From Stramenopiles sp. TOSAG23-6 (lineage: Eukaryota), in NCBI GenBank assembly GCA_900128565.1, contig LT635936.1, positions 1 to 39,882 of the forward strand: a stretch of 39,882 nucleotides of DNA, given 5' to 3'. The notes beneath the pieces are model-generated. The model was given only the letters and a program-made list of their open reading frames with translations, ran no database searches and was not told where the DNA came from. Shown piece by piece: positions 1-23,358 of the stretch (the first letter of the stretch is position 1; every line of letters begins with the position of its first letter). Made by a program: the position numbers and the translations under genes.

Positions 1-54
1 TTTGTACCTAACAAATTTTAGTTTTTTTTTTTGAAATATTTTTCCAAAATACAT
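1..54 (+). other. 3' part of a family intron, truncated by the window edge; probable non-canonical 3' end (...AATACAT)
   Basis: TTTGTACCTAAC (1-12) is the family core. TTTTTTGAAATATTTTTCCAAAATA is identical to the 3' end of intron 13201-13292, but it is followed by CAT rather than G. No AG follows until about 78-79, inside the conserved STGG motif. The exact end (52 or 54) is uncertain. Confidence 0.6.
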
Positions 55-1380
55 GGGCCTGTGATGGCATCTACCGGAGGACCCAATACACTAGTCTCTA
101 CTTCTTTAACACCCGAAGTTTCGGATGCTATACGAATGTCTGCAACTATTGAAAATTCAGGACAATGCACTGCTCTTCGTCATGCAGTGGTTCCGTGTAC
201 TTTAGATGAAGCTCACTCCATTTTTGATGGATGTGTAACACTCTCCTCGCCTAATGAAGCTTTGAAAAAAGGTGAATTTGCTGCGATTTATGACTTTGCT
301 TCAGATGTTATGAAATTAGAGAAAGGTTACAAAACTCATTTAGAAAATTCAAATGTTGCGTTAAAACATTCAAAGAATCTTCCTGGTTATGGTATTGAAG
401 AACACTGGCGGAATGTTTACGCAGATGTGACGTCACCAACTGAAAATATAAAATCGGGCAAATTTATATCAAAACTTTCCCGATGGCTTGTAGAAAATCA
501 ACCGATCACTTTAGCTATCAATGATGAAGAAAATAACTATACCCTTTCAAAACAATTATTTGAACAAACAGGACAGGTAGTTTACACTGTTGGTACAATA
601 CATAATCCAGCACTAACTTGTCAGGCTCGTCCACAAGATTCTGAAATATTTGGTGAATTTCCTGTCCGTCGAGATCTCTCACAATTTACGAAATATCCAG
701 TTATTGTACCATCATCAACTCCATCATACAATTCCACATACAATAAAAAATGGCTGAGTAAAATGGGTGGCTCTGGTCCAAGTGGTTTATTTGAATGGAA
801 AGCAAATGTAGCGCAATCTGCGATACACTTAATAGAATCAGTAAAATCTCAAGAAACAAAAGGATTCATGCGTGTAGTTCATGAATATTTATCTGATGCT
901 TTATTTGAGAATCCTAAATTAGGCCGAGGAGTCCGTACAACTTTATATGGATTACAAACGACACCTTTAAATGGTCAACTCAATTTCATTCGCTGTGATG
1001 AAAAAATGTCATTTGATGACCTTGCACCTTATGTTTGGCCGTTTTTTTTAACTTCTGCTCTACCTTTGCTCAAAGTATCTCTTTCACCATCTAATCAAAA
1101 GATAGCAGATGTACTTAAAACGCATGGTGTGAATACTATCATTGAATCCGCTGAGTCATTTACTGTTACCGCAAACGATGCTTTTAACATCACTTACCCA
1201 GAATTGTTTACAAGACGCAAAGAATGGCCACTCGCAGGTCAATTTATTTCACTTTATTTTTGTTGTGGTCACATCAAATCCACACATGATACTAAAGGTG
1301 GAAACGCCCCAGACAAAAAATTTATAGATGCTTTTGTTTCATCCAAAAAATGGCTTTCTATGAGAACTTTATCTGTTTAA
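55..1380 (+). CDS. Aldehyde dehydrogenase-superfamily protein (PutA/P5C-dehydrogenase-like C-terminal region), last exon; gene is 5'-partial
   Basis: ASTGGPNTLV resembles ETGGxNA and SATIENSGQCTALR resembles SAFxxAGQRCSALR. The ORF start at 31 lies in intron sequence. Confidence 0.65.
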   Translation, partial: GPVMASTGGPNTLVSTSLTPEVSDAIRMSATIENSGQCTALRHAVVPCTLDEAHSIFDGCVTLSSPNEALKKGEFAAIYDFASDVMKLEKGYKTHLENSNVALKHSKNLPGYGIEEHWRNVYADVTSPTENIKSGKFISKLSRWLVENQPITLAINDEENNYTLSKQLFEQTGQVVYTVGTIHNPALTCQARPQDSEIFGEFPVRRDLSQFTKYPVIVPSSTPSYNSTYNKKWLSKMGGSGPSGLFEWKANVAQSAIHLIESVKSQETKGFMRVVHEYLSDALFENPKLGRGVRTTLYGLQTTPLNGQLNFIRCDEKMSFDDLAPYVWPFFLTSALPLLKVSLSPSNQKIADVLKTHGVNTIIESAESFTVTANDAFNITYPELFTRRKEWPLAGQFISLYFCCGHIKSTHDTKGGNAPDKKFIDAFVSSKKWLSMRTLSV

Positions 1381-1547
1381 TACTATTTTCATACTATTTT
1401 TGTAAATAAAAAACGAAATCACCAAAATGATGTGAGGTTGAAAACTTGATATATTTATTTACTATAATCCAAACTATATAAATTATAAATTGTATGAATG
1501 CTCCATATTTCGTTCTGTAAAAAGTTGTGAAATTTTAAAAACTTTGT

Positions 1548-1868
1548 TCAACCGTGTTGGAACACCAAAACACCAACACTACCGACAAAAAAATATATTG
1601 TTTTTGCTTTTTCAGCCGTAATAAAAGATCCAAATGATTTCCCTACAGCAACATGCCAAGTTCCTTGATATTTTTCATCAAATGCTGTTTTTATCAACTT
1701 TGCACAACCTTGGTAGAATTGAACTTCACCCTTTTCTTGTTGTTGCAATACTTTCTGAGCTAAACTGACTGCAAATGTAGCATATTCTTCTTGTGCATCG
1801 ATGAGAATTCGTCGAACCTTTGCATTATATAAAGCACTTTCATCTGACTTTTTTAAAACTTCTGGCAT
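1548..1868 (-). CDS. Dynein light chain, LC8/DNAL4 family
   Basis: AKLIKTAFDEKYQGTWHVAVGKSFGSFIT...IYFFVG matches the LC8 family signature; 106 aa. Confidence 0.9.
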   Translation of the reverse strand: MPEVLKKSDESALYNAKVRRILIDAQEEYATFAVSLAQKVLQQQEKGEVQFYQGCAKLIKTAFDEKYQGTWHVAVGKSFGSFITAEKAKTIYFFVGSVGVLVFQHG

Positions 1869-2278
1869 TCTAAGATATTCTGTAAAGGGTGTTTTAATTT
1901 ACCTTCTTAATGATGCTTCCTAATGTGAACTTTTTTTTTCTCCCGAGACACTTTGAATATCAGAATTCAGATTTAGATTATTGTGAGGTGTATCCTCATT
2001 CCTCAAATTATAGAATGTAACGAACAAATAGATTTCGTGTTTTGAAAAAACATTTGAAGCATAATTTGAAATTTGCCAATCAAATCTAAATCGGCAATGA
2101 TGACATTGTTTGATGTCTCTCTCTTGAGAGTCTCTCTTGACTTGCATCATGTTATAGTAATAGTCTTTTACATTGACGACTCTTTGTATTTGTATTTGAA
2201 TANTTTTTACAACATTCGTTCCCATTACATTTTAGACATTTGACATCACATAAGAACACTTTGTAGTGGTAGAACGAT

Positions 2279-4962
2279 ATGAGCATGAATAATGCTGACC
2301 ATATACCTGTTCAGCGACAATTTAGCGAGCAAGGTTATGAAAACAGCAGTGAAAGTAAAGGAAAAAGCTTCTCAATAGTCAAACCTAAAAATGACCGTGT
2401 GTCGGCAAAATTAAGAGATGCTTCTACGAGAGGGAGAATTGAAAAGAATCTTCAACCTGCAACATCATTTAAATTACTTGAACCTAAATCGTCCCGTGAT
2501 CGTTTGCGTAACAAAAACCGAAGTTTATCTGAAAATGGCGACGTATATTTAGACTATTTGACTCTGAACTTCGTTGATGGTTCCATAAGCGGAATGGCAA
2601 GTCTTTATATTACAGAAATAGAATTAAAATATAGGCAATCTCATGCATATAACTATGCGAGTACTTTTGCGTGGGTGTATGGCGCACTTGCTGTCTGGCA
2701 ACTTCTATATATAATTCTTGGTTTACTTATTATTTTCCAGGGAGAAGTTCATAATGAATGTTATTCCAGGAATATTTATAGCGTATTATTTTCATTTTCT
2801 GCCTGTTTAGCATTCTTAGCGACTGGTTTAACTTTAAAAATACAACCCCAAAATTTGTTTTCCTTTGGGAAAATGGGGGAAAGTACTCGATTACAATATT
2901 TTATCAGTGTCATGTGGATCTTTGTGACAGTAGGGTACAGAATCACATCAATGGAACTTCTTTGCGGTGGTGACGGAACTCCTAACAATGGTATTCGTGC
3001 AGGTGATATTCTTATGGTTGGATTGGGACAACAGAATATTATGTACTTACTCATGTACGTTTTCATCATTTATTATTCAATTTCAAAAAAAAAACATTTC
3101 ATACCAAATTTTGTACTAACAAATTCCAAATTTGACATATTTTTCACCAAAACATGGGCAGTTTATGCTCTGGTTTGCGGTCACCATTTGTGCTTGTCAC
3201 TTTGTGCACAATCAATTCGCTTAGTTGGTTGGAGAGTCTTTACTTTGCTTATCGACCAATGAATGATTATGATGTTATGAATTCAATAGACTCTATCCAT
3301 AACTCTCAGTTGTTACCCGTTTCTTCAACCAATAGAATTGTGCACAGCTTTGATTCTACAGAAATAAGGCAAAGTATTATCAATCTTGGAGTGGTATTAA
3401 TGGCATCATTGATGTGTTATTATATGGTTCGAAAACTTGACCAAATGAAAAGAAGTTCATTTCTCACTTTATGGCAATTGAGGGAAGCAAATGTACGTCA
3501 TGAATTTAAAATTTATTTGTTTTGTACGAAATTTTGTGCCAAAGGATTTCTTTTTGAGTTTTGATGGTGTATATTTAATCTAAATCATGAATGTAAAGTC
3601 ATTCCATAACGAATTCCTAATTGGATATATTTTTTCAAAACAAATATCGATGCTGATATACAAATAAATCCATTTGCAACGCCAAACTTACGAGCATGGT
3701 TAAGTGGTCGATCTAGTTTCCGTTTTTCGCACAATTCAAGTGAAAGAGCCTCTAGAATTGAAGCAAATAGACAATCTAGAAATTTAAGTAAATCTGGTTC
3801 CATACGTACAAATTTACGAAATTCACTTATTGATAATTCTCAATATTCTGAGAGAGGCTATAACGAAAGTAAAGATGGTACAAATAACTACAAGCTAATA
3901 TGGGATATTGAGAATAGTGGAAAATCATTAAACGACGATTCGTTTCAAAACAGAAATAAACAAATAGAAAAAAGCCGAGAATGGATGCTCCGACAACGGC
4001 AGAGACCGTCATTCAGAGGTGCAGTTCAAATCGATCACCAATGGCAAATAGAGTTTTCACGGTTAAATATTTTAGAAAAGGTTGCTTCAGGTGCTTCAGG
4101 TCAAGTATTTAAAGCAGAGTATCTAGGTGTTCCTTTAGCCGTAAAGCAAATCTTTTCCACAATGATTTCAGAAGATCTTGATGAATTTTCTCGCGAACTC
4201 TCACTCCTAGCAAAAGTTGACCGACATCCAAATGTTGTACGACTTATGGGCATAGCAAAGGAGAAACCAAAACAAAAATTACCACCTTCGTTATACATTT
4301 GTATGGAATGGGTTAATGAGAACATGGAAAAGTTATTGGAAGATTCAAAGCGAGCTCCGAAAGATCTCTCTCAAGTCAATGACCTTAAGATTGTACTGCG
4401 ATTAGCACAACAGGTTTGTGCTGCAATGGTTCATTTACATCGTCAACGATGTCTTCATCGTGATCTCAAACCAGCAAATGTGTTAATTACACCTGAAATG
4501 CATGTTAAAGTTTGTGATTTTGGTGTGTCAAATTTGGGCTCAAATATTTTCAGAAAGTCAAAAGGTAAACGAATGCAACTTGCTAGTGGTGTTGGAACGC
4601 CTGGTTATATGGCTCCAGAAATGTACAGTGCTGAGCCTGTCGTTGGCTTTGAAGCCAATGCAAAGGTAGATGTGTTTGCATTTGGAGTACTATTAGCCTC
4701 TTTATGTACCTCAAACCGACCATATGGCAATGAGATCTCAGAACTTTCCCAATGGTGGTCAATTGATCGCTGGACAGTAGCAATGCAAAATGAAGGTTTA
4801 GTACCATATCTCGAGCCTTCCTGCAAAGTACCCAAGCAATTAGCTGATTTAATAGGTCAGTGTTGTGATTTTGATCCGCTTAGTAGACCTTCTTTCAAAC
4901 GTATTTCGTCATATCTTGCTAGAATAAGTAAAACAAGTCTTCCTCGGGAAACACTCGAATGA
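2279..4962 (+). CDS. Multi-pass membrane protein with C-terminal TKL-type protein kinase; join(2279..3054,3156..3492,3646..4962), 809 aa
   Basis: Several hydrophobic helices in exons 1-2. Frame is open from 3610 to 4962. Kinase motifs ASGASGQV, LAVK, HRDLKPAN, CDFG, GTPGYMAPE and DVFAFG are present. Joined length 2430 nt is in frame. Confidence 0.8.
3055..3155 (+). other. Family intron, 101 nt, GTACGT...AACAT (in-frame AG alternative ends at 3161)
   Basis: Explains the frame shift between ORFs 2279 and 3154. Core ATACCAAATTTTGTACTAAC ends at 3120. CATG is repeated at both junctions. Confidence 0.75.
3493..3645 (+). other. Family intron, 153 nt, GTACGT...CAAAT
   Basis: Contains in-frame stops. 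Core GTACGAAATTTTGTGCC near 3524-3540; CATAAC ends at 3610. For the phase-0 donor, the first frame-compatible AG is the GAG at 3850-3852. CAAAT is repeated at both junctions. Confidence 0.7.
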
Positions 4963-5166
4963 GCAAGTATAATTGAACTTTGAGTAAAGAAACATAACTT
5001 TGCTCATCTGAAGTTTGTCAGTGAAAAACAATTCTTTTAATATACTATTACTATAAACTATTTCTGCAAGTGTTTTTATTTTACAAACCAAAGAATGGGT
5101 TTTCAAAAAAGAGTACTCTTAATAAACTTTGGTGGGGATAGTTTTCTCATATATTTGAAGACCATA

Positions 5167-7458
5167 TTAAAATCCAACAAATTCAGGATTTTTTATGTCT
5201 ACCGCCATCGTTTCTTCTCGGGTAAACTCACCTGTGATCATAGGGTTGTATTCAGATCCCATACTTTGAGTCATACGTACACTCGATTTTGTAAAAGCCG
5301 GTGGTTTATTGAAGGGTAAATTGTATTTTTTACTCTCCACTTTTTGCCAGATGATACCATCGAAATATTCATGCATTCTCAAGTCATCAAATCCGCCACT
5401 CATCATTCCTAAGCGGAGAGCAGGGTTTTTGTTGAGTAATGCAGTCACAAAACCATGAGTTGCTTTACCTTCAACGTTCGGGTGGAATGAAAGTGTTTTG
5501 TTACAATGTACAATTCGTGAAAACATAGTCATTTGATCTTCAGAAACAAATGGAGTTTGGTGGTGAATTAACTCATACGCTATAATCCCCAGTGCCCAAT
5601 AATCAACTGCTTTATTGTGACCAGTGGCAAGAATTATTTCTGGTGCCAGATATTCGGGTGTTCCAACAAGCGTGCTAGTTTTTGTTCCAGGTTTTATGCG
5701 CTTAGCAAAACCAAAATCAACGAGCTTTATGTATCCATCTTTGCAGAGTAAAATATTTTCAAGTTTTATATCACGGTGTGCAAAGCCTGCTTCGTGGACT
5801 CTCTTTAGCGCAGATGTCAAAATGGTGACATACACTCGCGCCATACTTGATTGTAAACCCCCAAGCGAAGTTCTTGGAAGATTTTTAGATGCATACATCA
5901 AGTGCCACATATCACCACCAGCAATGTATTCGGTGATAAAGTACAAGGTCTTTTCGTCTTGCCAGGTTCCGAGGAGATCCATGATAAAAGTGGATCCCTT
6001 GAAGCAAATCAGTGCATCTCTCTCACGTGTAATGTTTTCTTCCTGATTTGTATCAAGTAGATGTGATTTATGAATAGCTTTTACAGCCACGTAGTTGCCG
6101 GTAGCTTTATGAGTAGCTAAATACACGTTACCATAAGTACCTGCACCAAGCTGTCCTTCACATTTATAATCTTTGAGTGATATGCGAATATCACACTGGT
6201 CGGGACTTTGTTCTGTCGCAATTATTTCACTGGTATTTGGTACTGCATTAATTAGTTCTTTCTTGAGTTTTACCAGTTTTTCATTGTGTGCTTCAATATG
6301 AGCTGCTTGTTTTGCTCTGTTCTGCTCCTCCCGCTCTATAACAGATTGTTCGATGACTTCTTGAGGCAGTAACTTAACAAAATCATCTGCTGTCAGCTGG
6401 AGGCAAACTACTGTAGTTGAAATTACGGTCACGGTTGCCATTCGTTTTGAAATTTTGTTGTCTTTAGACAGTAATGCCATCTCCCCGAAATGATCTCCTT
6501 TTCGTAATGTGGCCACGGGTACAGTACTTTTGCGGCGACTAATATTCTTCGGGGAACATTTTTTATCATAAGAGTTTTCTTGAGGTGTCGTCTTCGTATT
6601 ACGGCGGTCTGTTGAATCTGGAGAAACTTTTTCCCGTTTCCGACGAGAAAGTATGTTTGTCAACTTAGATTTCATATTTGTTCTTTGAGTTGCATCACCA
6701 TCAAGGTCGTTATTTTCATCATAGTTACAACGAGTAGAATCTTGTGCAACTGAACAGACACCATCAAACACTATGTAGAAAGAATCACCAGCATCACCCT
6801 CTGTAATAATTTTTGTCCCTTGCTTGAACTTCTTTTCAACCATGACATCAGTCAACGCAATCAATTGTAAGTGTGAGAGACTTGAGAGTAGAGTAACTTG
6901 CTTTAAAAACCCTAGAATCTCTACCTGGCGGGATGATGCACACTGATGCATCAAGGAGCGAAATATGGATCTTGTCATTACCCAAACTGTTCCAGGCAAT
7001 GAACAAATTACACTTGCAGTCCGTGGTAACTTTGCGTTGATCAAACCTGTTTCGCCAAAAGCAAATGGTGCACCAATTACACGTTCATCGTCGCCATCAT
7101 CACCTACCCTAATATTGACTTCACCTGATTCGAGCATGAAAAATTCCTCATTATGGGTTTCATCTTTTTGGATTAAGACGTCACCTTTATTTATATCTCT
7201 TTTGAACATTGCATCAATCATAGATCTAAGCTGATACAATTCAATTGCACGAAACAGAACGTGTTTACGCAAAGTTTCTAAAATGATTTCTTTCGTCTTT
7301 GAACTTTTCTCACCAGTAGACGTTGAACTTTCATTGACTTCATCTGAAGCACAATATATATTCTCGCGTGGACAAATTTCAGTCGCTGGCTTTTGCAACT
7401 TGATCGAAGCTCGGCTTTTCCTCGATGGTATATCGATTTTTTTTGCTGATTCCGTCAT
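5167..7458 (-). CDS. cGMP-dependent protein kinase-like (two cNMP-binding domains plus AGC kinase)
   Basis: FGETGL..PRTASV and FGEMAL..RMATV cNMP cassettes; GAGTYG, HRDIKLEN, DFG, GTPEYLAPE and DYWALG kinase motifs. First ATG at 7458. Confidence 0.9.
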   Translation of the reverse strand: MTESAKKIDIPSRKSRASIKLQKPATEICPRENIYCASDEVNESSTSTGEKSSKTKEIILETLRKHVLFRAIELYQLRSMIDAMFKRDINKGDVLIQKDETHNEEFFMLESGEVNIRVGDDGDDERVIGAPFAFGETGLINAKLPRTASVICSLPGTVWVMTRSIFRSLMHQCASSRQVEILGFLKQVTLLSSLSHLQLIALTDVMVEKKFKQGTKIITEGDAGDSFYIVFDGVCSVAQDSTRCNYDENNDLDGDATQRTNMKSKLTNILSRRKREKVSPDSTDRRNTKTTPQENSYDKKCSPKNISRRKSTVPVATLRKGDHFGEMALLSKDNKISKRMATVTVISTTVVCLQLTADDFVKLLPQEVIEQSVIEREEQNRAKQAAHIEAHNEKLVKLKKELINAVPNTSEIIATEQSPDQCDIRISLKDYKCEGQLGAGTYGNVYLATHKATGNYVAVKAIHKSHLLDTNQEENITRERDALICFKGSTFIMDLLGTWQDEKTLYFITEYIAGGDMWHLMYASKNLPRTSLGGLQSSMARVYVTILTSALKRVHEAGFAHRDIKLENILLCKDGYIKLVDFGFAKRIKPGTKTSTLVGTPEYLAPEIILATGHNKAVDYWALGIIAYELIHHQTPFVSEDQMTMFSRIVHCNKTLSFHPNVEGKATHGFVTALLNKNPALRLGMMSGGFDDLRMHEYFDGIIWQKVESKKYNLPFNKPPAFTKSSVRMTQSMGSEYNPMITGEFTREETMAVDIKNPEFVGF

Positions 7459-7783
7459 AGCGTTTACCAAGTATTATTTATTTAATTCTCTTCGAATAGG
7501 GAGTTTGTAATATTATTACTGGGTCGGAGATGAACTGAGTAAGCTTCATCGAAGCTTTAAACCCAAGGCATCTTCTTGACAAGTCCGGGTAAAAAAACAA
7601 AAAAAAAGTACTTTCTTCTTGAACAAACCTGTTTTTCAAATTGGCCTGGCCAACCATCAAGAAGGCAAGTCAGTCCCTAAAAATCATAAAAATCATAAGA
7701 GAAATTTATATTCTTGAATAACATTATTATTGGAGTTTGGAAGTCCGTGACGTTGTCAGGTGAATTGAGAAGTGAAAAAAAAC

Positions 7784-8593
7784 ATGTCAACGTCGTCAAA
7801 GATAAGTGGACAAACGTGTTATTTTTGCGGGAAAATTACACTTTCTGAAATGCGTTGTGGCGGTTGTCATATGGTTTGGTACTGCAATAAGACGTGTCAA
7901 AAAAAATCCTGGAAAGCTGGGCATAAGGAAGAGTGTGCCCAATTCAAGTCTCAAAAGAAATCTAAGGGAAAAGCACTACTGGATGCAAACGCTTATGACC
8001 GTCGGGGTGCACGGTATCTAGGAAAGAGGAAGTGGAAAAAAGCCGAAGCGGAGTTTAGAAAGGCTTTATCCATATTACCACCAAGAGTTGAAGGCGAGCC
8101 ATCCATATTTTTTGAAAATCGTGCCAAAGCTTTAAATAGTATCGCCTGTGCCTTAATACAACAGGGTCGAAAAACCGAAGCAGAGAAAACATTACGCCAG
8201 TCCTTGCAAGAGTGGCCTCAATATTATAAATCTTTGTTTGATTTGGCGCAATTATTCAAAATGAGGGGAGATATAGAAAGATGTTTTAGTACACTTAAAG
8301 AAGGGATTACAGTTGATTCAACATTTAAGCCTATGATCGATATGTTTTGTGGTATGGTATTTGAAGACGTTCAAACAAAAATGAAAACAGAACCTCAACG
8401 CGCCATAGAAGTTGCAAGAGATGCCGTGTCGTTACTTCCACAAAATGTAAAATTGCGAATGGTGTGTTCGACAGCCTTAACTATGAATATGCAATTCGAA
8501 GAAGCAAAGAATGAGATTGAAGTTGCCTTAACAATCGACCCGGGTAACCAGTCACTACTTTCAACACGGGCAAAACTTAACAAAATTATTTGA
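7784..8593 (+). CDS. MYND zinc finger plus TPR repeat protein
   Basis: CYFC...CGGC...YCNKTCQKKSWKAGHKEEC is a MYND finger; TPR-like helices follow (AEAEFRKAL, ALTIDPGN). First ATG at 7784. Confidence 0.85.
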   Translation: MSTSSKISGQTCYFCGKITLSEMRCGGCHMVWYCNKTCQKKSWKAGHKEECAQFKSQKKSKGKALLDANAYDRRGARYLGKRKWKKAEAEFRKALSILPPRVEGEPSIFFENRAKALNSIACALIQQGRKTEAEKTLRQSLQEWPQYYKSLFDLAQLFKMRGDIERCFSTLKEGITVDSTFKPMIDMFCGMVFEDVQTKMKTEPQRAIEVARDAVSLLPQNVKLRMVCSTALTMNMQFEEAKNEIEVALTIDPGNQSLLSTRAKLNKII

Positions 8594-8631
8594 AATTATT
8601 AAAGATATTATTTTGTCATATATTTTATTTG

Positions 8632-11438
8632 TTAGAAAAGCATTATCCACATTATTTGGTATACTATTGCAATCACACAGACAAACACTACTATCTTTCT
8701 ATGCTTCACCACGGTAGATCTGAGTAGAGAAGTTTGATGTGAAGATATCCAGCTTCCACAACGACCTAAACCATTTATAATAATAGTTTTGAATAAATTC
8801 CACAACCAATGAAGAGTCGTGTAACAAGCTTGCAGCATTGACTTTGATGGAACATTACTACCCACTTTTTTTAAGGTTCTAACAGATCCACAACATGGAC
8901 TAAATAAAGATCGCACGATAGAAAAGCAGGCATACATAAGTTTTATAAATGGACTGAGTGTAGATGACAAGATTTTCCATAAAATTGCACCGAGAGCAAT
9001 CGGAAACTGTGCTAATTGAGCTACCATATTATAGATCAACCGAATACCATGCCAAAGTACAATAAATAGACTATTTGAAGGGATAATAACAGCAAAAAGG
9101 GAAGTGATCCTTAAGACAAAAGTTTCTTCAAACCACTGGAACCATGAACCAAATAACCAAGTGAAAAAAACACGAACGATTTCAACTTTGGAAAATAAAT
9201 CATAAAGCCCAATAAACATCATACAAATAGATGCAACCCATACACCAACTACCATCAAAGTACGCATATATTGTGAAAAAATATTTCAAAAAAAAGTCGT
9301 TACGTACAAAATTTCGTACGAAAAAAAAACTTTGAAATTGAAAAAAAAAATAAAACATACATCCACCAACGGTAAAAAATACCATAACTATTAAGGAAAA
9401 TTGCCCAGCTTGGAAGACCTGACTCACATAACTGGGTAAGTTTATCGCTGCTAAGTACGAAATGTTTTACAACAGGGTGAACCAGAGGATCACGAAATCG
9501 AATTTGTACCATTTGATTAATAATTTTTTCCTTAACAGGTTCTTTCATTGAACTAAGAATTTCTTGTTGTTGTGTAGCTCCTGCAAATCTTCGGGAGGAC
9601 CATGCAACGACATGTAATATTGCTCTCTTTATCGCATTTAAAATTTTTCGTCTAACTCCTTCGTCTTGTAATAATTCCGCATTAATACGAAGTTTACTAC
9701 TACTAATTCTATGTTTTTTACGTCTCCGAATTGCCCTATTACCAATGTATTTTCCATGTGAATTTTTCCTTGCTTTATTTTTGAATTTCCTTTTCAATAA
9801 CTCATTACTCTTTAATCTATTATTTACAGAATTACTCGAAGATTCTTTCATACCTGAAGGATTTTTTGCATCACACGAAATATCCATTTCTATATTTGAA
9901 ACTAAAGATAGAGGTATATGACCTATAGAATCATCATTACTATCTATTCCTCTATTTGGTGTATGTGGAGACACACTTGATGATGAATCTTTCATTATTG
10001 GTGAAATTTTGTTTCCGTTATTTTCAGTTGGTGTTCTATCGAAATTGTTATTTTCTGCCAGAGATTTGGGACTTTGTACATTCGAATCTGTACTAAACGA
10101 ATTTCGAATTTGTTGAATACCCTTCCTTTTCTTTTCTGTTGAAGACTCTTCAAATGCAAATTCATTCTTTTGACTATCATTACGATTACTGCGATGAATA
10201 TTATTACCTGTGATATCATTCACTTCTTCATAAACACTTGGAGGAGTGAATGGAGAATTTGGTCGATTCGTACTCAAATCATTAGATGAATTTATATTGT
10301 GATTTTCTGATTCAGGGGATAGAGAAGTATATATGGAATGTTCTCTTTTCTTCGGTGGTTTTATCTTAGGTACTGGTACATCTTGTGTTTTTGGATTCCA
10401 ATGTCTCACTAATTCACCAGTTTCAATAATTATACTTCCCATCGAAGTTATTTCATTAGTATATTTAAAACCAAAAATTTTATCAACAGGAACGATAAAC
10501 AAAGTTTGTCCAATGTATGGGTGGAATGGTGATTCCTTGAGGTGCAATTTGAATGCTCTAAATATAAAAAAAATAACAACTGATCCAAAATATATCGAAA
10601 CTCGTATTGTTAAGTACATTACGACAAATACAGAAATAATGACTGACGACCAAGCAGGAAATATTGTAGTTAACCAATCGTCATCACTCAATTTTTCTGC
10701 ATAACGTACACTTATTATAACCTGCCCGTGTTTTCCTTTTTCGTCATCATTTGAATCATCTGGGGCTATTATTTCCATAGTAAGCTGTTGACCACCAGTG
10801 CTATTAAGTCTCCACAAGCCAACCTGAAATTCATCAATGGGTAGAATGTGTCGATCTAGAGACAAACCATACCAATCTTCACCGTGGCCAGTAGCTAACA
10901 AAAGTCGACTCAATAATTCAGGTCGCATAGAAGAAACTTGGTTGATGAGATCATCATATACGTCTTTTGGGCTAAATTGCTGTGTTCCTGGACTTCTAGG
11001 AGAAGTTGCCATCGAATCAATACTAAGGCGTCGACTGACACTTTTAGAACGACAAAACTGAGAAAGTTTCCGTATGCATTCAATATCAGCGTCTCGCTGA
11101 ATTGATGGATCACCTGCAGCTTCATACGCAAGCCAATCTGCAACTCTTTCACGAACGGCCGGAGAATTTGCCCAGTCAAAAGCCCAAGAAGCAGCCTTTG
11201 ACTTCAACACATCCAAATTACGGCCAGATAGCACTGGTGTGAAAGGATTATCATCATTGCTAAACTCATAGGGACTCGATTTAGACAAATCTGCGCTACG
11301 AGTGCTTGTATTTACATCAGAATTTGCATGTTTAGATCGATTTCTACGAGAAACGGGAGTTTTTACTGGAGTTGACGAAACGCCGTTCTCAGCTCGGTTA
11401 CGTTTTGAACTCAAACGTTTTAAAACGCCTTTGAGCAT
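8632..11438 (-). CDS. Conserved uncharacterised membrane protein; join(complement 9361..11438, 8632..9265), 903 aa
   Basis: Two ORFs are joined by a family intron, giving ESGLPSWAIFLNSYGIFYRWWMRTL...IGLYDLF. This resembles a motif I recall from uncharacterised plant proteins (GxPSWxIFxxSY..YRPWMRxL..IGFYDLY). Joined length 2712 nt is in frame. Confidence 0.7.
9266..9360 (-). other. Family intron, 95 nt, GTATGT...ATATAT
   Basis: Minus strand reads GGAT|GTATGTTTTATTT...TTCGTACGAAATTTTGTACGTAAC...TTGAAATATTTTTTCACAATATAT|GCGT. Splicing restores WWM-RTL. Confidence 0.8.
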
Positions 11439-11797
11439 CTTGAGAGCAGACAATTCCACAAAAGTTTTTACGAAGTTTCAGCTTTCAGTGAATGGTATTG
11501 ATAATTATCAAAAAGTAGATTGCAATGAGATTTGCATCATCAAAACATCCAAGAAACACCAAAGATCTTCAGTGAGATAGACTTCGAAATGATATTAATC
11601 CTACAAATTAAATTATAGGCGAGTTTTCAATTCGTATTTTTTTTATTTTTTCTTCGATTTGGGATTTCGTGTAAATACTACGATTAGGGTTTATTGATTG
11701 ATGTTTTCAAGAGTCAAGTATCATCAATAATATTATAATGACAGTGACATTGCTTTTTCTTAGCTTATTGTTTACATAGATTAGCTGGTTATTGTTA

Positions 11798-14700
11798 ATG
11801 AGCCAAAAGATGGAGCATAGGTTCCAAGGTGAGGGTGTTTCTTTTAATGTAACGCAGAGTGGTTCTGTTACAACTTTGTGGTCTTCTACAGCACGTTGCT
11901 TGACTATTAACTTAAGAACGCGGGAGTTATTTGTCGAAATGTCTGTTTCAGGTTCTAAGGTGCACAAGAGTTATCCAACATCTGGTTTAACAAAGTTGAT
12001 GCCTGGTAAATCCCCTGGTTCTTTAAGTGTCAGTGTGCGTAATGAGGGTAATAAGGCTTTAAAAAAGTATAAATTTCGCGACAGTGCTAGTCGAAACACA
12101 TTTTGCAAATACATTCGATGCGCAAACCAATATGGCTATATTGTCGAGGAGTTGTATCGGAATTGTACGAATTCTTCCGAAGAACACACTGCGAGTAATA
12201 ATAGTTTATGTCCCGCTATAGATATATTTGATGACGACTTGTTATTAAAGGGTATATCGCGACTTGGATTCTCGAATCCTTCCACTCGTAAAGAACTCAG
12301 TGATTTAGTATTTCAGTTACGAAAAGTTGGTACAAAAACATCAAAAAATCTATTAACTGATAAACATTCTATTGATAATTTTCCTGTGATTACATACCGG
12401 GATATTTTTGATATATTCTGTCATTTAGTTATTGAAAACTCGATAAATTCTGGATATGGGAAGGGAAATTCTGAGAATGAATACGAAAATAGTGGGACAA
12501 ATGATTCTCCTGGTACATTTCAGAATTTGACTGCTTTAGGTCTTCAACTGCCTAAACAGGATTTGATTCCAGGAGAAAATTTTGATGAATTTCTAATTTA
12601 TGATCAAGTTTCATTATTATGGTGGCATATGTTCCCTGAAGGTAAAAGACAAGTATATGTCCATGGTCGACTTTTTATTACGCAATACCGTTTGGTGTTT
12701 CTTGCATTTAAAGCACTTCCAAGAACTTCAGGTAAAGCATCTGAAAATAGTGGAATTCGAAGATTATCAGAGGTAGCAAGTGAAACTCTTCAAGCGGAAG
12801 TACCCCTCTCTAATGTCAATTATGTAAGACAACCTCGCGATGATCCTACGTCTATTTGTCTATATTGTAAAGATCTTCGGTCTTTGACTTTTACGTTTAA
12901 CGGTTCTACAAAAGTTGTGGATAATTTTGTGAGTGTTTTGGAAAATCGAATATATTTTGAATATTTACCTAATTCGATCAAAGATTTGAAGATAGATGAT
13001 ATAAATTCAAATTCAAAAATGAATCTTACAAATGAGAAAAAAATTAAAAATTGTGAAGGTACCCGAAATCAAAATAATCTAGATAATAAAGTATTTGCAT
13101 TTATGCAACCTACACCAAAACAAAATATATGTTTAGGAAGAATACGTGCTGACACAAGGGGAAAAAACAGTACAAGGCTTCCCGACTTTTCATCTGAATG
13201 GTATTTTTTATTTTTTTTCAATTTTTGAATTTATTTTTCATACGAAATTTTGTACCTAACGGATTATTTTTTGAAATATTTTTCCAAAATAGGTCTTCAT
13301 ATAATCCCATAAATGAATTTCATCGAATGGGTCTCTTAGATATTTCAATGCAGGAAACATCGAATCAAAAAGATAATATTTTTGATCTTTCTATTTCATC
13401 CAATCCACAAAGTGAGACACCAAACTCAACGAGAAACAACGTTCATAATTCATGTAATTTAAATGTAAATAGAAATGACCTCGAATTTTCAGTACCACAA
13501 AATCATTCTCAATGGCGTTTGTTTCATAATATTAATTTTAAAACAAGTCCAACATATCCTGAATATTTGATCATACCCAACACGCAACTTTTCTCAGATG
13601 AAGATTTATCTGCTGTATGTGCGTGGAGATCAAAAGCGAGATTTCCAGCTGTTACGTGGCATTGTCGTAAAAGTGGTGTTATTTTAGCTCGTTCGGCAAT
13701 GCCATTGAGAGGTCGAGCAGGTATGTCAAATTGTAGAGCTGATGAAAATCTTTGTGACATTTATCGAAAATCTGTGATAAATAGTTATGGAAGTACCACT
13801 CATGTAAATACTGAAAATAAACAAAGAATATCTCCAAAAACTTATATGAAAACACCAGGTAAACCTTCAAATAGACGGCGGATTTTTGGTAGTAAATGGA
13901 ATCCAGATTATGAAACTTCACGAAATCGATCAGTAAGTCAAGAATCACTTTCTAGTACTCCAGCATTTGTGGTGATAGATTGTCGTCCAGCAATTAATGC
14001 AAAAGCAACACAGATTATCAAAGGCGGGGGTGAAGAAAAAGCTTCAAGATATCAAAATACAACTTTAGAAAGGCTATATATAGAAAACATACACGAAATG
14101 CGTAATTCCCTTGTTGAGCTTGCAAAGATATGTCTTCCTGGTTCAATAAGCGATGATGATAATAATTGGTTGTCAGATGTACAAAATACTGGTTGGTTGC
14201 GGCATATCCGGATGGTATTGGCAGGATCTGCTCGCGTCGCTCAACTACTTATTGCAGAAAATACATCTGTTTTGGTTCATTGCAGTGATGGATGGGATAG
14301 AACTGCTCAAATATGTGCTACAGCTCAGTTGTTAGTTGATCCGTACTATCGTACTCTGGAAGGTTTTGGCGTCCTAGTAGAAAAAGATTGGTTGTCATTT
14401 GGCCATAAATTTCATGATAGAATAGGACATGGTCAGCGACCAAGAAAAGGTGACTATGTACATTTTCATCATTAGTTTCAAATTCATTTTGTTTTGTATC
14501 AAATTCTGTAACTAACAAACTTCAAATTTTATATATGTTTTACAAGATATACTCACGGTGGTGGTGGGTTCTTTGCTTCACGAGAAGCTTCGCCAATATT
14601 CACACAATGGATAGATTGTGTCTGGCAGCTGACGCGGCAATTCCCTACTGCATTTGAATTCAGTGAAAGAATGCTCATCTTCGTTGCAGACATGTCATCC

Positions 14701-15109
14701 TCATGTCGTTTTGGTAATTTCTTATGTAACTCAGAACGAGAAAGATCAGAACTTAATGTGAAGCAGAAAACTCCATGTATCTGGTCATATATATGTAGCC
14801 GAAATCATCATAGGAATAACAAATCAAATCGAGAACTTTTTAGTAATCCATGTACGTAATCATTTATTATTCATTTCAATTGTTTTTTGTACCAAATGTT
14901 GTACCTAACGAATTTTAAATGTAACAATTATTCCCAAAAGTACATGCTATCGAAAGGTGGATAGACCATTGTATCCCTCCACTTCACCGAAACGATTAGT
15001 GCTGTGGGATAAATTGTATCTTCGATTCGACCCAGCCTTATCCATTCCCGGGTCCGATGATGAAACTTGGGAAGGTAAATCAAGAGTTTTATCTCCTAGA
15101 GCTAGGTAG
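11798..15109 (+). CDS. Myotubularin-family PI3P/PI(3,5)P2 phosphatase with GRAM-like domain; join(11798..13200,13293..14457,14551..14851,14946..15109), 1010 aa
   Basis: GRLFITQYRLVF (GRAM-like), WSSYNPINEFHRMG, RSKARFP, catalytic HCSDGWDRT, EKDWLSFGHKF, SPIFTQWIDCVWQL, FGNFLCNSERER, NPCY and LWDKLYLRF. Joined length 3033 nt is in frame. Confidence 0.9.
13201..13292 (+). other. Family intron, 92 nt, canonical GT-AG
   Basis: TG|GTATTT...ATACGAAATTTTGTACCTAAC...CCAAAATAG|G restores the conserved W in WxxY. Confidence 0.9.
14458..14550 (+). other. Family intron, 93 nt, GTACAT...GATAT
   Basis: In-frame stop at 14473-14475; ACTAAC ends at 14516; the AG at 14545-14546 is out of frame; TAT is repeated at both junctions. 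A 135-nt canonical alternative (14450-14584) exists. Confidence 0.65.
14852..14945 (+). other. Family intron, 94 nt, GTACGT...TACAT
   Basis: Restores NPCY (myotubularin NPxY). CCTAAC ends at 14909; CATG is repeated at both junctions. A canonical alternative (14856-14940) gives NPCTTCY. Confidence 0.7.
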
Positions 15110-15220
15110 TTGCATGTGTTAGATTGATACCCGAGTACATGTAATGGTTATTAAAATGAAAATTGAAATGAAAACGAATATTCAAAACTGTTTTTTATTT
15201 ATCATTGTACTCTGAGGATA

Positions 15221-18200
15221 TTATAAATTTAATTTTTTTAAGGCTTCCTTCCATGATGCAGAGAGGCCCCAGGTCTGATCATTCTCTTCTAAAAATATCT
15301 CCACTGGAGTTCCATTAAAACGAATTCGATCTTCAGTCTCCTCCAAATATTTAAGCAAATTAATTTTCTCTTTGTCAAATTCTCCAGCGGTATCTGCCCT
15401 AGACTTCAAATTGATTTGAATCCATGTACACATTCGTTTGATTTCAGCTTGTTGCATTTGCATAATAGCAATCGATTGAACTCTAGTACGTTGCATTTCT
15501 AATTGTTTGTCAGTCTGTGTGACTGTGCATACGTGTCGAACAGCAGATTGAAGAGCCACCAAATAGTATGAACTTTGACCCGTGCAACCATTTGGCTGTG
15601 ATCCGTAAACCATAGCCCAACGAAGAGACTCCGGGAGATTTGGGGCTTCACAGTGCACAACAGCAGCAATAAGAACTGGTAGGAGGGAATCTGCTTCAAG
15701 AAGTTTTCGCGCCTTGCTGTTATACTTTTCATTCTCTTGATTAGAGTTGCTACTTTTACTCTCTTGAATATCCTTGTGTTGGGACAATGCATCATTAACT
15801 TCATCATGTGCAATCTGCACAATACAGAGAAGTAAACGGAGCATGCGCATGGGTACTCGGCATTGGGAAAAGTATGTTAGGGCGAGTGATGTGCGAGGAA
15901 AAGGACTAGTCGGTCGGAGCATACATATTTTGTCATTGGTAGGATTCCCATCGAATGAAATAACTGTGTCCATTTCAACTCCATTGCCTTCCCAACGCTC
16001 ATCAGACATACAAAACTCTCTAGGTACACCTAATTCTTCTGGTGTTAAAAGTCGCATCCAATGCTGTTGTTCAAGCCATACTCGATTATCGCCAGATCGA
16101 CCATTATCGCCCATTGTAGAGGCCACTGCCGTAGCAGCTATAGTAGCACTTTCCTTAATAGCGCTGCAACAATATATCAAACCTTCAGAGAGCTCATACA
16201 GTGCTTTCAAAATCTGCGGAGTTTCTATATCGAAATCATAGGCAATAACATCTCCAAGAAATGTTGCAACCATTGGAATCACTTCAACCAGAGAACTAAT
16301 CTTGGCTGCGGCCGTATTATCTTCATTTTGAAGATGAATATTTGTCGCAAGATGCTGCAATTGTGCAAGTAGTCTCTCTAATAATTGGCCCTGTGGATTT
16401 CTTTTGTCAACAATCAAAGAATTAAATACTTTTTGTATTTTTTTCCATTGTATTTCCTGATTAAGAATCAAAAGATTTTTAATATCATCACCTTCACGTT
16501 TAGGTCCACCATGAGGTACCGGAGGTCGTTTGTTCTCATTTGAATTTTGGCAATCGCTACGAATACTGCTATTTTGTAGTGTAATCGCCTTTTTCACTAT
16601 ATCAGAAAGTTTTGCACGACGTTCATCAAATGATAATGTTTGAAGTAAATATCGCGAATCATAAACAGCTTGGTCAGCATCACGGAGCTGATTATGTATC
16701 TGTAGTATGGACTCCGCAAGCGACATGATTGCAGTATCGTTGCTTAAAAGTGCATTTTCATTTAGATAAAATTCGACATTTATCATACATAAATCTGAAT
16801 CTTGTGCTTCTTGTGAGTTCAGAGAAACTCGTTCAAGTGATTGCTCACTCGAACCTTCATTGCATTTTCGTTTAGCATTTGATGCAATAGCAGCCACAGC
16901 TGCAGCAGCCACAGCATTTCCATCGCTAGCTGCTTGGAGGATATCAATATCTCCAACTGGAGTTGCGTATACAGAATTTGTGCCATATTTTGCTTCAGTA
17001 GAAGCAGTCATTGCAGTTATTTCATGTATTTTGCTAGCAATTATAGATCCTGCTAGCTTTTCACCTTGCATGAGCAGTTCCAGGTGTTGAATGAGCATTG
17101 CATTTCGAGATTCTAAACAGGGAATTTGACCCAACTTTCCCCAATCTGATAATATTTTTTTCTGTGCGTTCCATAAAGTTTTTGCATTCTCAAGCGTTGA
17201 TCGAATAGAATCCCACACTTTATGCCTCTTTTCTAATGCCAGACGCAATTCTTTATCATATGCTGTAAGGCGTAACGCATCGGTTTTATATTTGATACAA
17301 AATGATAATTTATCATTTATCGTAATATTTTGTTCTTGGGTTAATTGGTTTCGAGCGACCTCAATTGCATCAGCCGAATTTCCTCTTCGGACATCCAAGT
17401 CATCACCTAATTCAACTAAAATCGGAGATGCTTTTATGTCTGCATCTCCAATTACAATATCACTAGCAGAGATGTGTTTTGGTTTAGAATCTAGAGAATT
17501 TTTGTGCAATAATTTCCTAGCCCAGTTTTGCGCTTTCTGTGCAGTTGCTGCGACACCACGAGCTACTTCACCCGCCATCTTTTTCATGGTTTCTCTGTTT
17601 GATGAATCTACTGTAGTTGTTGTATTTGTCAAAAAGACATTGTTTGGGTTCAGATTATTGCAATGACTCTTCAACGCATCATATCCTAAATCAGCAACTG
17701 GGATCAAAAGTTTTTTGATATCTTTCCTTAATTGGACTAACAATCTCAATTGCCTCCGCCTTAATTTTTTATTTCCATTAGAATTAATAGTTTTTGTTCC
17801 CTCAAACATTTCTCTACTCGTTTGTTTAACAATGTCTACGACCATATTCTTTGAAGCAGTTTCTGTACAAGTAATTTCAATGTCTTCGAATAGCCAATGT
17901 GCACTAGCAACAGTTATGTAATAGCTTTGTTTTTCGTCCGGGAGAGCTTGAAAATATTCTCTTTTTCTTGGTGGCATATCTGTTTCGGTAAATGATGTCA
18001 ATCCAAGACCTGAACGACCAGCTTCAAGAAGCTTTTTGAATGTAGAAACAGTCTGTATTTGAAAACGATGAAGTCCACCAATGCCACGCTGTTTCAGCAG
18101 CTTTAGTTGTCTTATCTGGTCTCTTGGGGATACCATTTTCTTTTGATATACATAATCATTTGAACTTGCAGATGCCATAGCCATTGCGATGAGATCGTCG

Positions 18201-22316: not shown

Positions 22317-22536
22317 ACTATTATGAATTCTAAGCTTCAAACATAAGGGATGATACCAGAGTAATAAAATGTAATCATATGTATATAGATGTTATTATTG
22401 AACCTAAGTGATTTTTTTATCTCCAGATAGCGTTCACTACTATCTCGGTATATTATTCATTTACAATATATGAATGATATTAGTAAAAAGTTACGTGCGA
22501 GATATCCATATCTCCGATCTTGAAATAACGGGTGAA

Positions 22537-23358
22537 CAGGGTTGCATGGGCACGGCCGTTCCGAAGAATTTTTCGGAACGGGCAAAAATTTTATTCCCGT
22601 TCCGGAATGATTTTTCGGAACGGGCAAATATTTTATTCCGTTCCGAAATGATTTTTCGGAACGGGCAAATATTATATTCCCGTTCCGGAATGATTTTTGC
22701 AGATTTCGCGGAACGGGCAAATATTATATTCCCGTTCCGGAAGAATTTTGCGGAACGGGAATGGACCGGAACGGAATGAAGCTTTTGTTCCGGTTTTGTT
22801 CCTTTTAAACCCTAACCCTAATAATTTCGAATTTATTTTTTTCGTACGAAATTTTGTACCTAACAAAAAAATCAAAGTTTTGGAATATCGCCCGTGGACA
22901 AATCTGCTCAGATTTACCCGACTACCTTAACAAAAAAAAATCACAAAAAAAATTTCAAAAAAGAAATCTCATAGTAGTATCACGTGAACATTGTAGTATA
23001 AATGAATACTAGTAAAAAGAAAAGAATCAAAAATAAAATTTTATCTTCAAATTTTGATTATCCATAAATTAAATAGGCAAAATGTAATATTTCATTTTTG
23101 TGCCCGTTCCGCCGTTCCGCACTCTAGTGCGGAACGGGCAAATATTTTATTCCCGTTCCGAAATGATTTTTCGGAACGGGCAAATATTATATTCCCGTTC
23201 CGGGCAGATTTTGCGGAACGGGCAAATATTATATTCCCGTTCCGAAAAATTTTGCGGAACGGGAATGGACCGGAACGGGAACGGAATGGACCGGAACGGG
23301 AACGGAACGCAGTTTTGTTCCCAAAAAAATCAGCGAAAATTGTGCCCGTGCAACCCTG
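22537..23358. mobile_element. Non-autonomous hAT-type DNA transposon (MITE), 822 bp
   Basis: TIRs CAGGGTTGCATGGGCAC (22537-22553) and GTGCCCGTGCAACCCTG (23342-23358) match at 16/17. Perfect 8-bp TSD CGGGTGAA at 22529-22536 and 23359-23366. Subterminal arrays of CGGAACGG/CCGTTCCG; no transposase ORF. Confidence 0.92.

What the first reader, a model, noticed from the sequence alone, without database searches (positions are those of the whole stretch)
3055..14945. A family of spliceosomal-looking introns that mostly end in AT instead of AG
Seen: six complete introns in three genes (3055-3155, 3493-3645, minus 9360-9266, 13201-13292, 14458-14550, 14852-14945) have ordinary GTAY donors and a TAAC branch-like motif. 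Only one ends in AG at the family position. The others end in CAT, AAT, TAT, TAT and CAT, and the partial intron at 1-54 also lacks AG there. These ends restore the frame in every case, give tight lengths (92, 93, 94, 95, 101 nt, plus one of 153), and rebuild conserved motifs (NPxY in myotubularin; YRWWMRTL). Established: U2 introns almost always end in AG; abundant non-canonical introns are known from a few lineages such as Fritillaria, Amoebophrya and euglenids. Inference: this organism routinely splices non-AG acceptors, implying a relaxed or altered 3' splice-site recognition. Caveat: in-frame GT-AG alternatives exist close by for three introns (3055-3161, 14450-14584, 14856-14940); for the other two they would delete likely coding sequence.
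Basis: partly seen in the sequence, partly recalled or inferred. Interest (0 to 1): 0.95.

Follow-up and report, generated by a model that had tools for sequence, protein, structure and literature searches.

The report
Transposon-born introns ending in AT
Genes of this marine protist carry copies of one short, mobile-element-like intron whose two borders repeat the insertion target, so restoring each gene needs a cut after AT instead of the usual AG, although no spliced RNA has yet been seen.

Summary
Seven introns lie at the stated places (six complete, one partial). All have GTAY starts and a TAAC branch motif. One ends in AG and the others in CAT, AAT, TAT, TAT and CAT.

They are more than look-alike introns. 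They are copies of one high-copy repeat, which thousands of contigs in two DNA runs carry. All seven lie in the sense direction in four genes.

In the five non-AG copies, the last 2-5 letters of the upstream exon recur as the last letters of the intron. That is the mark of a target-site duplication, so this is an introner family. It also explains the tight lengths and why exact removal restores every frame. Frame restoration therefore reflects insertion history and does not prove splicing.

Evidence that the AT ends are actually used is indirect but fair. At intron 9360-9266, 10 of 11 homologues run gap-free through a conserved YR.WMR motif that only exact removal rebuilds (371 against 334 bits). 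Two of the five have no plausible GT-AG route.

No spliced RNA junction was seen, and the two RNA runs look DNA-like. I put the introner reading at about 0.9 and real GT..AT splicing at about 0.65. No paper reporting this was found.

The parts
1..54 (+). 3' part of family intron #1 (cut by the window edge). It ends ACAT, and the exon starts at 55. An AG at 20-21 lies 9-10 nt after the branch motif.
   Evidence: E 6e-09
3055..3155 (+). Family intron #2, 101 nt, GT..AT. Direct repeat CAT|G at both borders. A GT-AG alternative ends at 3161.
3493..3645 (+). Family intron #3, 153 nt, GT..AT. It is a family copy with about 52 extra bases in the middle (3554-3605). Direct repeat CAAAT.
   Evidence: (two profile hits, 3483-3553 and 3606-3655)
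9266..9360 (-). Family intron #4, 95 nt, GT..AT. Direct repeat AT|G. It splits the M codon of the conserved YR.WMR motif.
13201..13292 (+). Family intron #5, 92 nt, the one GT..AG copy. Direct repeat G|GT.
14458..14550 (+). Family intron #6, 93 nt, GT..AT. Direct repeat TAT. The most diverged copy.
14852..14945 (+). Family intron #7, 94 nt, GT..AT. Direct repeat CAT|G. The ends CATGTAC / GTACATG pair over 7 bp.
22823..22866 (+). Intergenic fragment of the family core (CGTACGAAATTTTGTACCTAAC). It sits beside CCCTAACCCTAA and between blocks of 41-42 nt hairpin repeats.
   Evidence: (E 2.5e-08)
55..1380 (+). Last exon of gene A (no Pfam family).
2279..4962 (+). Gene B: a membrane region plus a protein kinase, three exons.
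8632..11438 (-). Gene C: no Pfam family, 12 remote homologues, two exons.
11810..15110 (+). Gene D: myotubularin-like phosphatase, four exons.

Best explanation
These are copies of a short (about 92-101 nt) non-autonomous mobile element that works as an intron, that is, an introner family.

What each copy carries: a major-spliceosome type donor (GTAYGT) at its first base, and a strong branch box (TACYTAAC) 33-36 nt before its end.

How the AT end arises: insertion duplicated a few bases of the target, mostly (C)AT, often followed by G. The upstream exon therefore ends in ..AT and the intron ends in the second copy of ..AT. Restoring the original message means removing the element plus one copy of the duplication, so the cut falls after AT. 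The one copy whose target began differently ends in AG.

Inferred, not shown: the major spliceosome of this organism carries out the second step at YAT as well as YAG. It would place the cut by distance from the branch point. A short helix may help, in which AU|GUA at the 5' junction pairs with UAYAU at the 3' end.

Shown: the family, the copy number, the direct repeats, the sense bias, and the ancestral coding sequence at two junctions.

For the CATG class the same message would also result from borders written AT..AC.
For: - Family: the 7 copies align and a profile finds them again at E 8e-22 to 3e-07.
- Copy number: 6,497 contigs of run X1 and 4,973 of run X3 lay on this 20 kb, almost all at the intron copies. 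Intron-bearing bins reach 8,400-187,000 depth against 8-48 in exon bins.
- Other copies share the borders. At least 30 X3 and 34 X1 contigs match up to place 55 (..ACATG) and then diverge. RNA-library contigs matching copy #5 go on after ..AAAATA with CATG (table 7).
- Direct repeats: the exon end equals the intron end over 3, 5, 2, 3 and 3 nt in the 5 non-AG copies. At random, P(>=2) is 0.077 per site.
- Orientation: 7 of 7 genic copies are in the sense direction.
- All 7 introns seen in the window belong to the family. Ten other open frames read as single ORFs, 8 of them with Pfam domains and 2 with none.
- Junction #4: 10 of 11 aligned homologues run without a gap through YR.WMR. Exact removal scores 371.2 bits against 334.3 for the best GT-AG alternative.
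- Junction #7: exact removal gives NPCYR, matching NPFYR in P0056, and scores +2.3 bits over the GT-AG alternative.
- The first AG after the branch box is in frame with the family donor in only 1 of the 5 non-AG copies. For #4 and #6 neither the family donor nor a donor 4 nt on gives a frame.
- Copies are 52-73% identical yet all keep GT, TAAC and the AT end.
Against: - No spliced RNA junction was seen.
- The one RNA-library contig that reaches a border (X7, 2769-3134) continues 80 nt into intron #2.
- In-frame GT-AG alternatives exist near all five. One of them (3055-3161) uses the element's own donor and the first AG after the branch box.
- At #6 the homologue profile prefers the GT-AG alternative (385.2 against 376.8 bits).
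- GT..AT is not a known productive pairing of first and last intron bases in major-type introns (my own knowledge).
- Frame restoration and the direct repeats would look the same if the AT ends were never used.
- The sample is only 6 complete copies. No whole genome is held, and no further copy was found in three public collections.
Confidence: 0.6

Rival explanations
1. The introner family is real, but splicing is ordinary GT-AG. The spliceosome uses nearby AGs, and where needed nearby exonic GTs, which gives small in-frame deletions or insertions. The AT ends are only scars of the target duplication.
For: In-frame GT-AG pairs without stops exist near all five non-AG copies. 3055-3161 uses the family donor and the first AG after the branch box. 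For #3 and #7 a donor 4 nt on, paired with the first AG, is in frame. The public gene model P0001 is built this way. The profile prefers the alternative at #6 by 8.4 bits.
Against: At #4 the nearest alternative removes the conserved RWWMRTLMV stretch and costs 37 bits. #4 and #6 would have to skip the conserved family donor for weak exonic GTs 10 and 8 nt upstream. By my estimate, not computed, GT and AG are frequent enough here that in-frame pairs would turn up by chance, so their existence proves little. P0001 needs a 5-residue mini-exon and translates intron #5, so it is not a credible model. A single T-to-G change would make each AT end a perfect in-frame AG, yet even the diverged copies keep AT.
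Confidence: 0.15
2. The elements are removed exactly, but the 3' cut is not chosen by the usual spliceosomal rule. The cuts are set by the short helix between the two junctions, as proposed for euglenid nonconventional introns and Amoebophrya introners.
For: In one fixed register the 5' junction pairs with the 3' end over 7, 6, 5 and 7 bp in 4 of 5 non-AG copies, 2 bp in #3 and 1 bp in the AG copy. At random, P(>=5) is 0.037. Minimum-energy folds close the ends in #2, #4, #6 and #7. Direct repeats overlapping the borders, together with inverted repeats, are the hallmark of Amoebophrya introners (PMC7789003, passages).
Against: The helix follows largely from a palindromic duplication (CATG, AT) next to GTAC. 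Whole-intron folding energies are no better than shuffles (z +1.3 to -1.6). The conserved GTAYGT and TACYTAAC argue for ordinary first-step chemistry. #3 has only 2 bp.
Confidence: 0.12
3. The insertions are not removed from RNA at all. Either the genes are broken or carried as one allele beside an intact one, or the elements are cut out of the DNA in the expressed nucleus, like ciliate eliminated sequences.
For: The unspliced RNA-library contig 2769-3134. Direct repeats at both borders are also what DNA excision would leave.
Against: 7 of 7 copies are in the sense direction. Long intact frames lie on both sides in four genes. Copies have diverged to 52-73% identity, so they are not fresh hits. 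The same insertions stand in an independent 2024 metagenome run (X3 contigs 2874-3339 and 13262-14908). The borders are AT, not TA. Nothing here points to nuclear dimorphism.
Confidence: 0.08

Closest known systems
Introner elements of Micromonas pusilla and Aureococcus anophagefferens (short DNA-transposon-like introns)
   Same: Many similar short introns sit in unrelated genes. There is a target duplication of about 3 nt. The element supplies the 5' GT and the 3' site lies in the duplicated target, so the element plus one duplication is removed (review PMC11282704, passages and the Fig. 2 legend).
   Different: In those families the duplicated target supplies AG and the introns are canonical. 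Here it supplies AT in 5 of 6 complete copies. Terminal inverted repeats here are at most 5-7 bp.
Non-canonical introns of the tunicate Fritillaria borealis
   Same: They derive from miniature transposons. An exonic target (TAC) forms the 3' splice site. AC and AT ends are common and are handled by the major spliceosome (PMC11282704, passages; the primary paper was not read).
   Different: Fritillaria introns start with AG, not GT. Here the donor is a textbook GTAYGT and the branch box is strong. The lineage is also different: an animal against a stramenopile protist.
Non-canonical introns / introner elements of Amoebophrya (parasitic dinoflagellate)
   Same: Direct repeats of 3-5 nt overlap the exon/intron borders, inverted repeats pair the intron ends, and the introns occur as repeated families (PMC7789003, passages).
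   Different: Amoebophrya shows no preferred end dinucleotides and has 8-20 nt inverted repeats. Here one pattern (GT..AT) dominates, and the donor and branch box are conserved.
Euglenid nonconventional introns
   Same: The borders are non-canonical, the ends are brought together by pairing, and duplication-like repeats sit at the junctions (PMC11282704, passages).
   Different: Those lack GT, a branch box and a pyrimidine tract. These have the first two.
AT-AC introns (minor U12-type, and the rare major-type AT-AC class)
   Same: They tolerate a non-AG 3' end. For the three CATG-class copies the borders can be written AT..AC without changing the message.
   Different: The 5' motif ATATCC is absent. 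The branch box lies 33-36 nt from the end, against the roughly 10-20 nt I recall for U12-type. The other three copies would read AT..AA or AT..AT.

Membership tests
Introner (transposon-derived intron family) | Many similar introns in unrelated genes | tested here: met
   7 copies in 4 genes. Thousands of contigs in runs X1 and X3 carry the family.
Introner (transposon-derived intron family) | Target-site duplication at the borders | tested here: met
   Direct repeats of 3-5 nt in total at all 6 complete copies. The exon-end/intron-end run is >=2 nt in 5 of 5 non-AG copies against 0.077 at random.
Introner (transposon-derived intron family) | Terminal inverted repeats | tested here: inconclusive
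   Only 5-7 bp in 4 of 5, partly a by-product of palindromic CATG/AT next to GTAC.
Introner (transposon-derived intron family) | Removed from mRNA | tested here: inconclusive
   No junction was seen. The RNA runs X7/X8 give thin, DNA-like cover. No spliced fragment was in the protein collection.
Introner (transposon-derived intron family) | Absent from the same site in relatives (recent gain) | not testable with these tools
   Homologue proteins are continuous across site #4, but their gene structures are not available.
Major (U2-type) GT-AG intron | GT donor matching the U1 consensus | tested here: met
   GTACGT x3, GTATGT, GTACAT and GTATTT.
Major (U2-type) GT-AG intron | Branch box upstream of the 3' end | tested here: met
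   TACTAAC / TACCTAAC / TACGTAAC / TAACTAAC, 33-36 nt from the end in five of the six complete copies. For #7 the script took a later TAAC (21 nt); the family box lies about 37 nt from the end by my reading. This is a motif match only.
Major (U2-type) GT-AG intron | AG at the 3' end | tested here: not met
   1 of 6 complete copies ends in AG. The other 5 end in AT at the frame-restoring position.
Minor (U12-type) intron | 5' [AG]TATCCTT, and a branch motif TCCTTAAC 10-20 nt from the 3' end (recalled definition) | tested here: not met
   No copy has the ATCC donor. The branch-to-end distance is 33-36 nt.
Amoebophrya / euglenid type structure-defined introns | Ends paired by inverted repeats, and no fixed end dinucleotides | tested here: inconclusive
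   A short helix is present in 4 of 5, but GT and the branch box are conserved and the whole folds are not unusual.
Ciliate-type DNA-eliminated sequence | TA-bounded, absent from expressed DNA | tested here: not met
   The borders are AT, not TA. The insertions are present in the SAG-like run X1 and in metagenome run X3. An element-free DNA form was not seen, but the tables were cut.

The most novel reading that the evidence does not exclude
In this MAST-3-like stramenopile, most of the intron complement (thousands of copies) is one introner family whose duplicated target ends in AT. The major spliceosome has adapted to finish splicing at YAT as readily as at YAG. That would be a lineage-wide relaxation of the most conserved splice-site dinucleotide, driven by a mobile element. 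The donor and branch signals are left fully canonical, so the 3'-site change can be studied in isolation.
Probability: 0.45. Interest if true: 0.85.

Novelty: new variant of a known kind. Interest (0 to 1): 0.72.

Why it matters
If the AT ends are used, this is a natural system in which thousands of otherwise textbook major-type introns (GTAYGT donor, TACTAAC-like branch) lack the terminal AG. It would bear directly on how the second step of splicing picks its site, and on how far a mobile element can push the spliceosome to change. It would be a stramenopile parallel to Fritillaria and Amoebophrya.

There is also a practical consequence. Gene finders that insist on GT-AG mis-model these genes. 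The public model P0001 invents a 5-residue exon and translates an intron. Protein catalogues of these abundant, uncultured ocean flagellates may therefore be damaged systematically.

Tried and rejected
RNA evidence
- Read laying on runs X7/X8. Cover was thin (0.14 of words) and no splice joint appeared among the 15 of 255 rows shown. One contig, 2769-3134, is unspliced.
- I do not count that contig against splicing, because the libraries look DNA-like. The intron-to-exon depth ratio is about 10^3, as in DNA run X3. Both bins spanning 1335-2668, which hold the dynein light chain gene (Pfam), have zero depth. One contig spans an intergenic gap (15095-15481).

Whole genome
- None is held, so there could be no census of all copies and no look at U2AF, Prp8 or the snRNAs.

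More copies elsewhere
- A 17-nt core pattern gave 31 loci in genome contigs, 64 in metagenome contigs and 6 in viral contigs.
- The family profile matched none of them, apart from one 28-nt hit at E 5e-4 in L030. These are chance matches.

Spliced protein fragments
- Exon 14551-14850 searched against longer and near-length proteins gave only P0001, a forced GT-AG gene model, and distant homologues.
- Gene C residues 440-692 found nothing by the word search. The full HMMER search then found 12.

Other checks
- Rfam on the window gave 0 matches.
- Whole-intron folds were not better than shuffles.
- The first-AG rule, the U12 reading and the ciliate-type reading were considered and rejected (see the membership rows).
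- In one search my stop filter dropped every candidate for intron #7, because the gene's own stop lies within the checked span. That alternative was tested instead.
- Supplements of the papers were not available.
Full report
WHAT IS THERE

The window is AT-rich (GC 0.33-0.41) and gene-dense eukaryotic DNA. Reading it directly confirms every coordinate in the finding. There are six complete introns of 101, 153, 95, 92, 93 and 94 nt, plus the last 54 nt of a seventh at the window edge. Gene D is a myotubularin-like phosphatase and gene B ends in a protein kinase. One intron (13201-13292) ends in TAG. The other complete introns end in CAT, AAT, TAT, TAT and CAT, and the partial one ends in CAT.

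ONE REPEAT FAMILY

The seven introns align along their whole length. The consensus runs AT|GTACGT ... TTCAATTTCAAA ... CGTACGAAATTTTGTACCTAAC ... TTGAAATATTTTTCCAAAA.A.AT|. A profile built from them recovers all seven (E 8e-22 to 3e-07). The only other hit in the 39.9 kb is a 44-nt core fragment at 22823-22866, in an intergenic repeat block. Intron #3 is a family copy with about 52 extra bases in its middle. Pairwise identity among five copies is 52-73%, counted with 12-nt flanks.

I saw no intron of any other kind in the window. Ten further open frames read as single ORFs. Eight of them hold Pfam domains, among them a 979-residue coatomer beta and 1796- and 1466-residue proteins, and two hold none.

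COPY NUMBER

Public runs were laid on bases 1-20000. Run X1 may be the source of this DNA. Run X3 is an independent 2024 seawater metagenome. They gave 6,497 and 4,973 contigs, although about ten contigs tile the unique sequence. Bins holding introns #1, #4 and #5 reach summed depths of 107,000-187,000 (X1) and 4,300-9,100 (X3), against about 48 and about 8 in exon-only bins. The tool warns that summed depth is not a copy number. I therefore claim only that thousands of distinct contigs carry the family.

The assembly graph of X1 breaks exactly at these introns (pieces 31-9292, 9334-13252 and 13236-20000).

Other copies share the borders. At least 30 (X3) and 34 (X1) contigs match up to place 55 (..ACATG) and then diverge. 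Contigs matching intron #4 run through the AT that precedes its GT. RNA-library contigs matching #5 continue after ..AAAATA with CATG (table 7).

DIRECT REPEATS: THE KEY TO THE AT ENDS

In each of the five non-AG copies, the last bases of the upstream exon equal the last bases of the intron: CAT, CAAAT, AT, TAT and CAT. In three copies the match extends by the G that follows. At random pairs of places about 95 nt apart in this window, a run of two or more occurs with frequency 0.077 and a run of three or more with 0.023. Five of five is therefore far beyond chance, about 3e-6 by my arithmetic.

This is what a target-site duplication looks like. The design matches published introners, where the element brings the GT and the 3' site falls in the duplicated target (PMC11282704, passages). 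The AG copy fits the same logic with a different target: G|GT on both sides, with the element ending in A.

Removing an insertion plus one copy of its duplication always restores the original gene. The tight lengths, the restored frames and the rebuilt motifs therefore show where the element went in. They do not show where RNA is cut. The claim of non-AG splicing needs other support.

SUPPORT FOR REAL USE OF THE AT ENDS

(a) All 7 genic copies are in the sense direction. That is expected only if their splice signals matter.

(b) The family is very abundant and its copies have diverged, yet all keep GT, TAAC and the AT end. A single T-to-G change would give a perfect in-frame AG.

(c) Gene C has 12 remote homologues. 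Eleven align near the junction, and ten of them run without a gap through SYG.(F/Y)YR.WMR. One of the ten has L for M (P0130). The eleventh (P0127) has YYKWMR in place of YR.WMR. The query reads FYRWW|MRTL, and its M codon is split by the intron. Against a profile of those homologues, exact removal scores 371.2 bits. The three nearest in-frame GT-AG alternatives score 334.3, 308.9 and 297.3.

(d) At intron #7, exact removal gives NPCYR, like NPFYR in P0056, and scores 2.3 bits above the GT-AG alternative.

(e) The first AG after the branch box, used with the family donor, is in frame in 1 of the 5 non-AG copies. Allowing a donor 4 nt on adds two more. Introns #4 and #6 have no such route.

EVIDENCE AGAINST, OR MISSING

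- No RNA junction was seen. The two RNA-library runs hold only 0.14 of the sampled words. The joint table showed 15 of 255 rows, all repeat artefacts. The single contig that reaches a border (X7, 2769-3134) runs 80 nt into intron #2.
- I read these libraries as DNA-like for this organism, for three reasons. The intron-to-exon depth ratio matches that of DNA run X3. The bins holding the dynein light chain gene are empty. One contig spans an intergenic gap. This is inference.
- In-frame GT-AG alternatives exist near all five.
- At intron #6 the myotubularin profile, built from 119 homologues that are mostly animal, prefers the 14450-14584 alternative by 8.4 bits. Exact removal leaves a loop 14 residues longer there.
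- The public gene model P0001 is 99% identical over 88% of the exon. It uses GT-AG throughout, but only by inventing a five-residue exon inside intron #6 and by translating intron #5. I give it no weight either way.

THE ENDS PAIR

In one fixed register, exon -2/-1 and intron +1..+5 pair with the last bases of the intron over 7, 2, 6, 5 and 7 contiguous pairs in the non-AG copies. The AG copy has 1. At random, P(>=5) is 0.037. Minimum-energy folds close the ends in #2, #4, #6 and #7, but the overall energies are ordinary (z +1.3 to -1.6). Much of this helix follows from a palindromic target (CATG, AT) lying next to GTAC. It may be a short terminal inverted repeat, a splicing aid, or both.

WHAT IT IS CLOSEST TO

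It has the architecture of Micromonas and Aureococcus introners, with the non-AG outcome seen in Fritillaria borealis and the border repeats seen in Amoebophrya. It differs from all of them in combining a textbook donor and branch box with one dominant non-AG end.

It is not U12-like. There is no ATCC donor, and the branch box lies 33-36 nt from the end. For the CATG class the borders could be written AT..AC, but the other three copies would then read AT..AA or AT..AT. GT..AT is the only uniform description.

ORGANISM AND PRIOR REPORTS

The source name of P0001 points to a MAST-3-type marine stramenopile assembly.

- A paper on such single-cell assemblies mentions introns only in its methods (PMC5778133, passages).
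- An Incisomonas paper has no occurrence of 'intron'.
- A 2026 preprint on protist single-cell genomes speaks only of intronic fractions.
- Searches for introner with non-canonical and stramenopile, for MAST-3 with introns, for GT-AT with introner, and for non-canonical introns with stramenopiles found no report of this family.
- The pan-eukaryote introner survey has no occurrence of 'stramenopile' or 'MAST' in its main text. Its supplements could not be seen and might list more taxa.

VERDICT

I put the introner reading at about 0.9, real GT..AT splicing at about 0.65, and the two together at about 0.6. It is a new variant of a known kind and of high interest, but it still needs RNA evidence.

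Noticed in passing
window 22527-23316: Blocks of 41-42 nt units (CGGAACGGGCAAATATTATATTCCCGTTCCG-type hairpins) lie in direct and inverted order on both sides of a core of about 300 nt. The core holds two telomere-like units (CCCTAACCCTAA at 22810) and the intron-family core fragment. This could be a larger mobile element, or the parent of the intron family.
   Followed up: partly
P0001 against window 13201-15110: The public gene model for the myotubularin gene starts inside intron #5 and translates it. It also inserts a five-residue exon from inside intron #6 and uses 14856-14940 at intron #7. GT-AG-only gene finding mis-models these genes.
   Followed up: yes
window 15221-39000: Ten further open frames read as single long ORFs without introns. 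Eight hold Pfam domains: coatomer beta, a cNMP-binding kinase, a myosin-TH1 kinase, a WW/UBA/VPS9 protein, an ankyrin protein, an epimerase, a MYND-TPR protein and dynein light chain. Two hold none. Introns in this window are all of one family and are confined to 4 genes.
   Followed up: partly
window 39167-39367 and 2203: A run of 201 N (an assembly gap) and a single N.
   Followed up: no
window 8632-11438 (minus): Gene C has no Pfam family. It shares a conserved membrane-proximal block (..CESGLP.W..FL.SYG..YR.WMR..) with 12 unnamed proteins of 166-1149 residues. This appears to be an undescribed family.
   Followed up: partly
window 1-20000, run X3: The 2024 seawater metagenome holds a strain differing at roughly 3 per 1000 bases. 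It has several small insertions in intergenic DNA, for example 22 bases behind 8604.
   Followed up: no
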